From NCBI RefSeq assembly GCF_003334385.1, contig NZ_QOWN01000174.1: a stretch of DNA of 494 nt. The stretch is one strand, 5' to 3'. This DNA is from Escherichia coli. GTDB lineage: Bacteria > Pseudomonadota > Gammaproteobacteria > Enterobacterales > Enterobacteriaceae. Made by a program: the position numbers and the translations under genes. How positions within the stretch are numbered: position 1 is the stretch's first letter; each line of letters starts with the position of its first letter. Below, piece after piece: positions 1-494 of this stretch. The notes under the pieces are model-generated. The model saw only the letters and a list, made by a program, of their open reading frames with translations. It had not been told where the DNA came from and made no database searches.

Positions 1-494
1 TTTGCAGGTGTACGATAAGACCAGGCGGCTTCGTAAAGCAGACGTCTCAGTTCGCTGTTTCCAACTTTTGTTATTCCCCTGGGACGAATGCTGTTTCCAC
101 TGGAATATTCCCCTGGAACCAGTCCCAGAAAAGCCATGAGTTGTTTGGGACTGGAAAATCGTGAAAAATCACCCAGTTCAGCAACCAGGGTTATTGCGGT
201 TAGCTGACCAACACCTTTAAGGGCCTGTAACTGGCAGACCAGATTGCACAGAGACCACTCAGGTAACAGGCGGGATATTTCCTGGTCGAGTTGAAGTATG
301 CGATCTTCAATCTGCTCCAGACTCTGACAATAGTGTTGAAAAGCAATCTGTTGAGATGGCTGACTAAATGATTGATTGGCTAACCAGGTTCGATGTTTGC
401 CGGTCCAGTGCTTCCCTGCATAACGTTTGTCTGTTCGCAATAGCATGCTCAGAATTCGCTGTCGGGCAACTCTGCTGTCTCGTTTAGCTGCTGC
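1..494 (-). CDS. IS110-family transposase (DEDD-type recombinase), internal fragment; N-terminus lies beyond position 494 and C-terminus beyond position 1
   Basis: Hand translation of the reverse complement starting at position 494 gives 164 sense codons with no stop (codons occupy 494 down to 3; positions 2-1 start the next codon). Family motifs recalled from memory are present: helix-hairpin-helix-like LKGVGQLTAITLVAELGDFSRF (approx 156-221), FLGLVPGEYSSGNSIRPRGITKVGNSELRRLLYEAAW (approx 21-131) with the conserved Ser-Gly (second Ser of YSSG, codon at 99-101), and a heptad-like linker SLEQIEDRILQLDQEISRLL (approx 261-320). All three plus-strand frames contain stops (for example frame 1 TAA at 16-18, frame 2 TGA at 137-139, frame 3 TGA at 162-164). 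No database search was run. Confidence 0.9.
1..494 (-). mobile_element. Internal portion of an IS110-family insertion sequence; element ends and insertion site not in window
   Basis: Inferred from the transposase CDS: IS110-family elements are small and consist mostly of the single recombinase gene. No element boundary, target site or flanking host sequence is visible, so the extent and intactness of the element cannot be assessed. Confidence 0.75.

What the first reader, a model, noticed from the sequence alone, without database searches (positions are those of the whole stretch)
384..416. Short peptide-level repeat GKHWT / GKHRTW in a basic linker segment
The minus-strand translation reads G-K-H-W-T-G-K-H-R-T-W. 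The two units use different synonymous codons (GGG/GGC, AAG/AAA, CAC/CAT), so the repeat exists at the protein level rather than the nucleotide level. The surrounding first 48 residues of the window are strongly basic (13 Lys/Arg/His against 2 Asp). Basic, aromatic-containing segments between the RuvC-like and Tnp domains could plausibly contact nucleic acid, but this is inference only.
Basis: inference. Interest (0 to 1): 0.12.

Follow-up and report, generated by a model that had tools for sequence, protein, structure and literature searches.

The report
Chance peptide repeat in ISEc45 transposase
The GKHWT/GKHRTW "repeat" is real in the sequence but is a chance look-alike created by one point mutation; it sits on a conserved small helix at the tip of the coiled-coil domain of a known E. 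coli insertion-sequence enzyme (ISEc45, IS110 family), so the finding is ordinary.

Summary
The window is residues 139-302 of the 377-aa ISEc45 transposase, an IS110-family RNA-guided recombinase that matches E. coli genomes at 100% identity.

The repeat is not a biological repeat:
- A 4-of-5 match at some short lag appears in 8-18% of shuffles and in 30% of real homologs.
- The repeat-making residues are not conserved (H167 9%, G170 3%).
- The nearest outgroup reads GKPWTGKHRTW, so one CCC-to-CAC change made the repeat.
- ISEc45 has no extra residues here, so there was no duplication.
- In a confident AlphaFold model, unit 1 is coil and unit 2 is helix.

What is conserved is W168-[T/S]169-x-x-[H/Y/F]172-x-x-W175-L176. 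This is a short helix in the published "variable region" between the two coiled-coil helices. The segment is not unusually basic for this protein. The basic character comes from coiled-coil helix 1, for which IS621 data suggest DNA proximity. Low interest; already known.

The parts
1..494 (-). Internal fragment (residues 139-302 of 377) of the ISEc45 IS110-family transposase gene
   Evidence: Open frame across the window. 100% DNA identity to genes annotated as ISEc45 family transposase in E. coli. NCBIfam NF033542 scores 279.9 bits against a cutoff of 140.
435..494 (-). C-terminal two-thirds of coiled-coil helix 1 (residues 139-158, AAAKRDSRVARQRILSMLLR); the truly basic part of the region
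   Evidence: AF2 helix 126-158. 25-residue windows starting at 134-136 are the second most basic region family-wide. This stretch aligns without gaps to IS621 helix 1, where the H138R substitution increases DNA binding (PMC13396178).
360..434 (-). Variable region (V) at the tip of the coiled-coil hairpin, residues 159-183 (TDKRYAGKHWTGKHRTWLANQSFSQ)
   Evidence: AF2: coil 159-169, helix 170-177, coil 178-183, pLDDT about 98. Absent from IS621, whose E129-to-G232 span is 75 residues against 104 here. The V region is described in PMC11187229.
384..416 (-). The reported peptide GKHWTGKHRTW (residues 165-175)
408..410 (-). Codon 167, CAC (His): the lineage-specific substitution that creates the second 'GKH'
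   Evidence: CCC (Pro) in the 86%-identical Salmonella homolog. P/S/A/N in other relatives; His in 9% of diverse representatives.
378..401 (-). Short helix GKHRTWLA (residues 170-177) carrying conserved H172, W175 and L176; conserved W168 and T169 lie just before it at window 402-407
   Evidence: DSSP on the AF2 model. Conservation in 110 representatives at 36-55% identity: W168 96%, T/S169 88%, H/Y/F172 98%, W175 92%, L176 75%.
258..359 (-). Coiled-coil helix 2 (residues 184-217)
   Evidence: AF2 helix 184-217. Covariation pairs 152-197 and 131-218 fit antiparallel packing against helix 1.
15..230 (-). Tnp domain core (Pfam PF02371, residues 227-298), including the catalytic Ser-Gly (S270-G271, window 96-101) and Y292, which aligns with the IS621 wedge residue Y264
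   Evidence: Pfam E=1.6e-23. Alignment to IS621 places S270 and G271 on S241 and G242 (PMC11208158).

Best explanation
The window encodes residues 139-302 of the ISEc45 transposase, an IS110-family RNA-guided (bridge/seek RNA) recombinase. The peptide GKHWTGKHRTW lies in the 'variable region' that joins the two long helices of the coiled-coil dimerization domain. Its look of a tandem repeat is a coincidence. A family motif, W-[T/S]-x-x-[H/Y/F]-x-x-W-L, is flanked in this lineage by residues that happen to match (G-K before each unit), and a single Pro167-to-His change completed the second 'GKH'. The conserved residues (W168, H172, W175, L176, plus hydrophobic 179 and F181) are spaced i, i+4, i+7, i+8, i+11, which is one face of a short helix. 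Shown: the conservation pattern, the ordered loop-plus-helix prediction, and the absence of this element from IS621 and ISCro4. Inferred: this aromatic face packs back onto the two long helices and caps the hairpin. That cap would hold the variable region in a fixed shape, which published AlphaFold dimers of related transposases place next to the partner subunit's RuvC domain. The variable, mildly basic residues (K166, K171, R173) then face outward.
For: Identity. Fold: AF2 pLDDT 96.3; Foldseek matches IS621 and ISCro4 with target-normalised TM-score 0.77-0.79. Catalytic residues D13/E64/D102/D105 and S270-G271 are present and conserved. Repeat is chance: shuffles give 8-18% and real homologs 30%. 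Repeat-making residues are not conserved: G165 42%, K166 17%, H167 9%, G170 3%, K171 24%, T174 10%. By contrast W168 is 96%, T169 72% (+S 16%), H172 72% (rest Y/F) and W175 92%. W168 and W175 are the only positions at 90% or more between L156 and G232. The exact repeat occurs only in near-identical E. coli copies; the outgroups read GKPWTGKHRTW and KKPW(T/G)x(R/N)HRIW. Codon 167 is CAC versus CCC. No duplication: the ISEc45 tip is 25 residues against a family range of 24-28, mode 26. The units are structurally non-equivalent: 165-169 is coil and 170-177 is helix. Intra-tip covariation 161-179 ranks 5th overall, consistent with a compact folded tip. The variable region between the coiled-coil helices, a simple loop in Tnp621, is described in PMC11187229. 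The coiled coil mediates dimerization in IS621 (PMC11208158).
Against: No coordinates were available, so burial of W168, H172 and W175 is inferred from spacing and conservation and was not measured. Near-invariant tryptophans could equally be an interaction surface for protein or nucleic acid. The placement of the variable region next to the partner's RuvC domain comes from published AlphaFold dimers of other family members (ISEc11, ISEc21), not from ISEc45 and not from experiment. ISEc45 is only 23% identical to ISEc21.
Confidence: 0.8

Rival explanations
1. The tip helix is a nucleic-acid contact. The exposed K/R residues, and possibly W168/H172/W175, bind flanking duplex DNA or part of the bridge/seek RNA in the synaptic complex. 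This is the first reader's suggestion, applied to the conserved motif rather than to the repeat.
For: The protein is strongly basic overall (about +23), and 88% of homologs have a net positive tip. In IS621, basic substitutions along coiled-coil helix 1 (V136R, H138R, D143K, H145R) raise activity, and H138R increases DNA binding (PMC13396178). These align with natural R136, R138 and R143 in ISEc45, so the coiled coil does lie near DNA. An aromatic substitution at the IS621 tip (E153Y) was also an activity hit (PMC13396178).
Against: The tip is only averagely basic for this protein, ranking 155th of 353 windows. Its basic positions are variable, while the conserved positions are aromatic or hydrophobic with helical-face spacing. 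IS621 and ISCro4 perform RNA-guided recombination without this element. The IS621 structure paper assigns only dimerization to the coiled coil (PMC11208158).
Confidence: 0.2
2. The tip helix is mainly a protein-protein interface. It docks on the RuvC domain of the partner subunit in the coiled-coil dimer and helps position or gate the composite RuvC/Tnp active site.
For: [quoted passage not shown] W168 and W175 are as conserved as catalytic residues.
Against: The apparent covariation of tip residue 178 with residues 101 and 103, which flank catalytic D102, turned out to be a simple clade split: NHKNY in the group at 55% identity or more versus TR..V in the 35-45% group. It is therefore no evidence of contact. 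No multimer model could be inspected here. This reading is compatible with the best explanation rather than opposed to it.
Confidence: 0.3
3. GKHWT/GKHRT is a real two-unit peptide repeat maintained by selection, for example as two equivalent phosphate- or metal-binding GKH sites, or is the relic of a 15-nt tandem duplication.
For: 4 of 5 residues match in tandem, and at lag 5 alone this is uncommon in shuffles, at 0.8-2%.
Against: Not significant once other lags are allowed; 30% of real homologs have an equivalent match somewhere. Only 2 of 192 homologs have any such repeat at this site, and theirs are different repeats. H167 is at 9% and G170 at 3% in the family. One nucleotide separates the repeat from the Pro form. 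There is no extra length relative to homologs. The two units have different predicted secondary structure.
Confidence: 0.03

Closest known systems
Variable region (V) of the coiled-coil domain of IS110/IS1111-family DEDD transposases (Siddiquee et al. 2024, PMC11187229)
   Same: Same position, between the two coiled-coil helices that separate the RuvC-like and PF02371 domains. Same make-up of small helices and loops. Its length accounts for the size differences between subfamilies.
   Different: That paper modelled ISEc11, ISEc21, IS110, IS492 and IS621, not ISEc45, which is 23% identical to ISEc21. It calls the region variable and its role unknown. Within the ISEc45 subfamily the region carries a strongly conserved W-[T/S]-x-x-[H/Y/F]-x-x-W-L motif.
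IS621 / ISCro4 bridge recombinases (PDB 8WT6-8WT9, 9T56; Hiraizumi et al. 2024, PMC11208158)
   Same: Same three-domain architecture (RuvC, two-helix coiled coil, Tnp), the same DEDD and Ser-Gly catalytic residues, and target-normalised TM-score 0.77-0.79. Numbering is identical up to about residue 147.
   Different: 22-24% identity. The IS621 coiled coil is about 29 residues shorter (75 vs 104 between the E129 and G232 columns) and has a plain loop where ISEc45 has the W-T..H..W-L helix. IS621 has its long non-coding region upstream, whereas ISEc45 has 253 nt downstream and 59 nt upstream.
IS4321/IS5075-type IS1111-family elements
   Same: Long coiled coil (101 residues over the same span). 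Long non-coding region downstream of the transposase gene. Candidate subterminal inverted repeats. Insertion at a specific site inside another mobile element.
   Different: 26% identity. The IS4321 tip helix has no tryptophans (RGAAVISRLSTLLED). The ISEc45 transposase (377 aa) is longer than the 330-350 aa quoted for IS1111-family transposases (PMC11187229).
True short tandem peptide repeats (units conserved across homologs and structurally equivalent)
   Same: Two adjacent five-residue units match at 4 of 5 positions.
   Different: Only two units. They are not conserved, not structurally equivalent, show no length gain, and do not exceed chance.

Membership tests
IS110-family RNA-guided transposase (NCBIfam NF033542; Pfam PF01548 + PF02371) | Whole-protein match above the curated cut-off, with both Pfam domains present | tested here: met
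   NF033542 scores 279.9 bits against a cutoff of 140. PF01548 covers residues 10-158 (E=3.6e-15) and PF02371 covers 227-298 (E=1.6e-23).
IS110-family RNA-guided transposase (NCBIfam NF033542; Pfam PF01548 + PF02371) | DEDD catalytic tetrad in the RuvC-like domain and a conserved Ser-Gly in the Tnp domain | tested here: met
   D13, E64, D102, D105, S270 and G271 are present and invariant or at least 90% conserved in 103 homologs. They align to IS621 D11/E60/D102/D105 and S241/G242 (PMC11208158).
IS110-family RNA-guided transposase (NCBIfam NF033542; Pfam PF01548 + PF02371) | Two-helix coiled coil between the domains; overall fold like IS621 | tested here: met
   AF2 helices 126-158 and 184-217. 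Foldseek to 8WT6, 8WT9 and 9T56 gives E about 1e-14 and target-normalised TM-score 0.77-0.79.
IS110-family RNA-guided transposase (NCBIfam NF033542; Pfam PF01548 + PF02371) | Element-encoded bridge/seek RNA in a non-coding end | tested here: inconclusive
   A 253-nt non-coding region lies downstream of the gene. Rfam 15 has no match at E up to 1 across the element. No RNA model was built.
IS1111-type organisation (Siddiquee et al. 2024) | Longer non-coding region downstream of the transposase gene | tested here: met
   59 nt upstream against 253 nt downstream in the cleanly bounded copy L012:742-2187.
IS1111-type organisation (Siddiquee et al. 2024) | Subterminal inverted repeats a few bases inside each end | tested here: inconclusive
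   TATGACCTTTAT and ACAAAGGCCATA match at 10/12, each 4 nt from an end. A match this short is near chance level by itself; only the symmetric position makes it plausible. Published extensions are 7 and 3 bp (PMC11187229).
IS1111-type organisation (Siddiquee et al. 2024) | Transposase of 330-350 aa that clusters with IS1111-family transposases | tested here: not met
   The protein is 377 aa. It is 26% identical to IS4321, similar to its distance from other branches. No phylogeny was made.
Functional tandem peptide repeat | Repeat units conserved in homologs | tested here: not met
   H167 9%, G170 3%, K166 17% and T174 10% in 110 representatives. The repeat is absent from the 86% homolog. Only 2 of 192 homologs have any repeat at the site.
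Functional tandem peptide repeat | Exceeds chance expectation | tested here: not met
   8% (window) and 18% (full protein) of shuffles; 30% of real homologs.
Functional tandem peptide repeat | Units structurally equivalent, or a trace of duplication (extra length or nucleotide identity) | tested here: not met
   Unit 1 is coil and unit 2 is helix. The segment is 25 residues against a family range of 24-28. The two units share 10/15 nt.

The most novel reading that the evidence does not exclude
The near-invariant W168/H172/W175 helix at the coiled-coil tip is not just a structural cap. It would be a functional module of 'long coiled-coil' IS110/IS1111 recombinases that contacts the partner's RuvC active-site region or the guide RNA or DNA. 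The only solved bridge recombinases (IS621, ISCro4) would then be minimal forms that have lost it. If so, the module could affect activity or specificity and could be grafted or mutated when engineering bridge recombinases.
Probability: 0.25. Interest if true: 0.35.

Novelty: already known. Interest (0 to 1): 0.07.

Why it matters
It matters little. The gene is an annotated, widespread E. coli insertion-sequence transposase. The region has already been described as the variable region of the coiled coil, and the repeat itself is a coincidence. There are two modest points of value. First, the residues worth mutating in this segment are W168, T169, H172 and W175, not the G-K-H triplets. Second, the solved IS621 and ISCro4 structures cannot be used to interpret this region, because they are the short-coiled-coil exceptions. 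The role of the tip element, present in all five other family members sampled here, is still open.

Tried and rejected
1. Direct mapping onto IS621 or ISCro4. Single-sequence HMMER aligned only residues 204-296. A 103-sequence profile aligned in two pieces that overlap on IS621 chain residues 144-156, which shows the segment has no counterpart there. The weak match of WTkkHreWL to IS621 LTDMHTQEL falls in the middle of IS621 helix 1 and is not trustworthy.
2. Residue contacts from the AlphaFold model. Coordinates are not exposed to the scripting sandbox, so burial and contacts could not be measured. A linker-joined pseudo-dimer prediction was considered and dropped for the same reason.
3. Covariation (APC-corrected mutual information, 196 sequences, effective number 159). 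Tip residue 178 paired with 101/103 (flanking D102) and with Y292. This was rejected as a two-clade split.
4. The charge argument. The segment is not more basic than the protein average.
5. Rfam scan of the element for a bridge-RNA family: no match.
6. Literature search for ISEc45: only mobilome lists, no functional study.
7. The IS621 structure paper names no Arg residue in the 130-189 range and assigns only dimerization to the coiled coil.
8. The ISEc11 reference locus (NZ_CP053751.1) is not in the collection.

Full report
OBSERVATION. The minus strand of the window is one open frame. It reads ...KRYA-GKHWT-GKHRT-W-LANQ..., and the 11 residues are encoded by window 416..384. The codons are GGG AAG CAC TGG ACC / GGC AAA CAT CGA ACC TGG, so the synonymous-codon remark is correct and the two 15-nt units share 10/15 bases.

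IS IT MORE THAN CHANCE? In residue shuffles, a 4-of-5 match at lag 5 exactly is uncommon: 0.8% for the 164-aa window and 2% for the 377-aa protein. The lag was not specified in advance, though. Allowing lags 2-10, the frequency is 8% and 18%. Among 192 real homologs below 90% identity to the query, 30% carry such a match somewhere in their sequence. Only 2 have one at the homologous site, and those are different repeats. The repeat is within chance expectation.

WHAT THE WINDOW IS. The window is 100% identical to genes annotated 'IS110-like element ISEc45 family transposase'. It matches 1,279 of 5,426 complete E. coli genomes. The full protein (WP_000555380.1, 377 aa) was read from locus L001, and the window covers residues 139-302. 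It scores 279.9 bits against NCBIfam NF033542, 'IS110 family RNA-guided transposase', whose cutoff is 140. It carries PF01548 at residues 10-158 and PF02371 at 227-298. The DEDD residues D13/E64/D102/D105 and the Ser-Gly S270-G271 are present and conserved. An AlphaFold2 model built on 103 homologs has mean pLDDT 96.3. Its best PDB matches are the IS621 and ISCro4 bridge recombinases, with Foldseek E about 1e-14 and target-normalised TM-score 0.77-0.79.

WHERE THE SEGMENT SITS. IS621 consists of a RuvC domain (1-122), a two-helix coiled coil that mediates dimerization (123-188) and a Tnp domain (189-326) (PMC11208158). In the ISEc45 model the long helices are 126-158 and 184-217. Between them lie a coil (159-169), an 8-residue helix (170-177) and another coil (178-183), all at pLDDT about 98. 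The finding therefore lies at the tip of the coiled-coil hairpin, not in a flexible linker. Its two 'units' are not structurally equivalent: GKHWT is coil and GKHRT(W) is helix.

This tip element has been described before. Siddiquee et al. 2024 (PMC11187229) call it the 'variable region' between the coiled-coil helices. They describe it as small helices and loops in most members, a simple loop in Tnp621 and Tnp492, and larger in Tnp110. Their AlphaFold dimers place it beside the partner's RuvC domain. [quoted passage not shown]

My alignments agree. From the E129 column to the G232 column, ISEc45 has 104 residues, IS4321 101, IS1618 100, a Rhodococcus element 102, a Salmonella-plasmid element 104, and IS621 only 75. 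A 103-sequence profile aligns to IS621 and ISCro4 in two pieces that overlap on chain residues 144-156, which skips the tip.

CONSERVATION. In 83 distinct forms of this segment from homologs at 57-99% identity, the consensus is xK(S/P)WTx(R/K)HRxWLANQ. In 110 cluster representatives at 36-55% identity:
- The conserved positions are W168 96%, T169 72% (+S 16%), H172 72% (the rest Y or F), W175 92%, L176 75%, position 179 hydrophobic in about 71%, and F181 59% (+L 26%).
- The residues that create the repeat are not conserved: G165 42%, K166 17%, H167 9%, G170 3%, K171 24%, T174 10%.

W168 and W175 are the only positions at 90% or more between L156 and G232. The conserved set has the spacing of one face of a helix (i, i+4, i+7, i+8, i+11). 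The exact GKH...GKH form occurs only in near-identical E. coli copies. The 86%-identical Salmonella homolog reads GKPWTGKHRTW, and the next relatives read KKPW(T/G)x(R/N)HRIW.

At the DNA level the Salmonella gene has CCC where ISEc45 has CAC. The other four differences within the 33 nt are synonymous. This shows purifying selection on the protein and a single-nucleotide origin for the repeat. The ISEc45 tip is 25 residues, at the short end of the family range (24-28, mode 26), so no 5-residue duplication took place.

BASICITY AND NUCLEIC-ACID CONTACT. The protein is very basic overall, with a family mean of +23. The tip (159-183) has a mean net charge of about +2 and ranks 155th of 353 windows of the same length. 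For helix 1 there is indirect support for DNA proximity. In IS621, the substitutions V136R, H138R, D143K and H145R raise activity. H138R is modelled near the duplex DNA backbone and increases DNA pull-down (PMC13396178). Numbering is identical between the two proteins over this stretch, and ISEc45 naturally has R136, R138 and R143; R136 and R138 are at least 90% conserved. This evidence does not extend to the tip.

MECHANISM. Most likely (inferred), W168, H172, W175, L176 and F181 form the buried face of a small helix that folds back on the two long helices and caps the hairpin. This would give the variable region a fixed shape. The intra-tip covariation pair 161-179 ranks 5th of all pairs, which fits a compact folded tip. 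Whether the outer face then touches the partner's RuvC domain (published AlphaFold dimers) or nucleic acid is open. My one apparent hint, covariation of residue 178 with 101/103 and 292, proved to be a two-clade split and was discarded.

CONTEXT NOTICED. A plasmid copy compared with an intact ISEc23 gives clean ends. The element is 1,446 bp (L012:742-2187) and is inserted at ...CATAAAG|TTTTTCTTTCC... inside the IS66-family tnpC gene. It has 59 nt of non-coding DNA upstream of the transposase gene and 253 nt downstream. A 10/12 inverted repeat lies 4 nt inside each end. The Salmonella relative sits in the homologous IS66 context. This is the IS1111-type layout of PMC11187229, although the protein is longer than typical IS1111-family transposases. 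Rfam has no match in the element.

VERDICT. The interpretation as a repeat is rejected, and the nucleic-acid idea remains undecided for this segment. The underlying object is a known transposase, and the segment lies in its already described variable region. Interest is low.

Noticed in passing
L012:742-2187 (plasmid NZ_CP053385.1), compared with the intact ISEc23 in L009 at about 2413|2414; also L001:~2013-3478. Outside the window.: ISEc45 ends were defined: 1,446 bp, inserted at CATAAAG|TTTTTCTTTCC inside an IS66-family tnpC gene, about 190 nt before its stop. It has 59 nt of non-coding DNA upstream and 253 nt downstream. A 10/12 subterminal inverted repeat (TATGACCTTTAT / ACAAAGGCCATA) lies 4 nt from each end. 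This is an IS1111-type layout. The 86% Salmonella relative (L002/L003) sits in the homologous IS66 context.
   Followed up: partly
L012:2170-2187 versus L009:2397-2413: The right end of the element (TGACAAAGGCCATAAGAG) resembles the left flank of its own target (TGCCAAAGAACATAAAG). As a result, 17 bp of ISEc23 align on both sides of the insertion. The boundary is ambiguous by a shared AG. The cause is unexplained; it may relate to guide-RNA recognition of both donor and target.
   Followed up: no
Protein residues 136, 138 and 143. R143 is at window 480-482 (minus strand); R136 and R138 lie just beyond the window end.: The IS621 activity-enhancing substitutions V136R, H138R and D143K (PMC13396178) fall at positions where ISEc45 naturally has Arg. 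R136 and R138 are at least 90% conserved in the ISEc45 subfamily. Engineering of IS621 thus re-created the natural consensus of long-coiled-coil relatives.
   Followed up: partly
Window 258-494 (coiled-coil region), compared with IS621, IS4321, IS1618 and others: IS621 and ISCro4, the only IS110-family recombinases with solved structures, have a coiled coil about 29 residues shorter than the five other family members sampled (75 vs 100-104 residues). They lack the tip element entirely.
   Followed up: yes
Proteins P0011-P0030, P0036, P0042 and P0070 (E. coli): Many deposited E. coli proteins labelled 'IS110 family transposase, partial' are 99-100% identical to ISEc45 over about 63-76% of its length but also carry PF13276 (HTH_21). 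They look like chimeric ORF calls where another IS abuts or interrupts ISEc45.
   Followed up: no
L001:1500-3900: Rfam 15 has no match (E up to 1) anywhere in or around the element, including the 253-nt downstream non-coding region where a seek/bridge RNA would be expected.
   Followed up: partly
L011:1-263 and 1995-2341 (E. coli AJ5 chromosome): This ISEc45 copy is flanked by a degraded fragment of another IS110-family transposase gene on one side and by an IS3-family element on the other, so it sits in a nest of insertion sequences.
   Followed up: no
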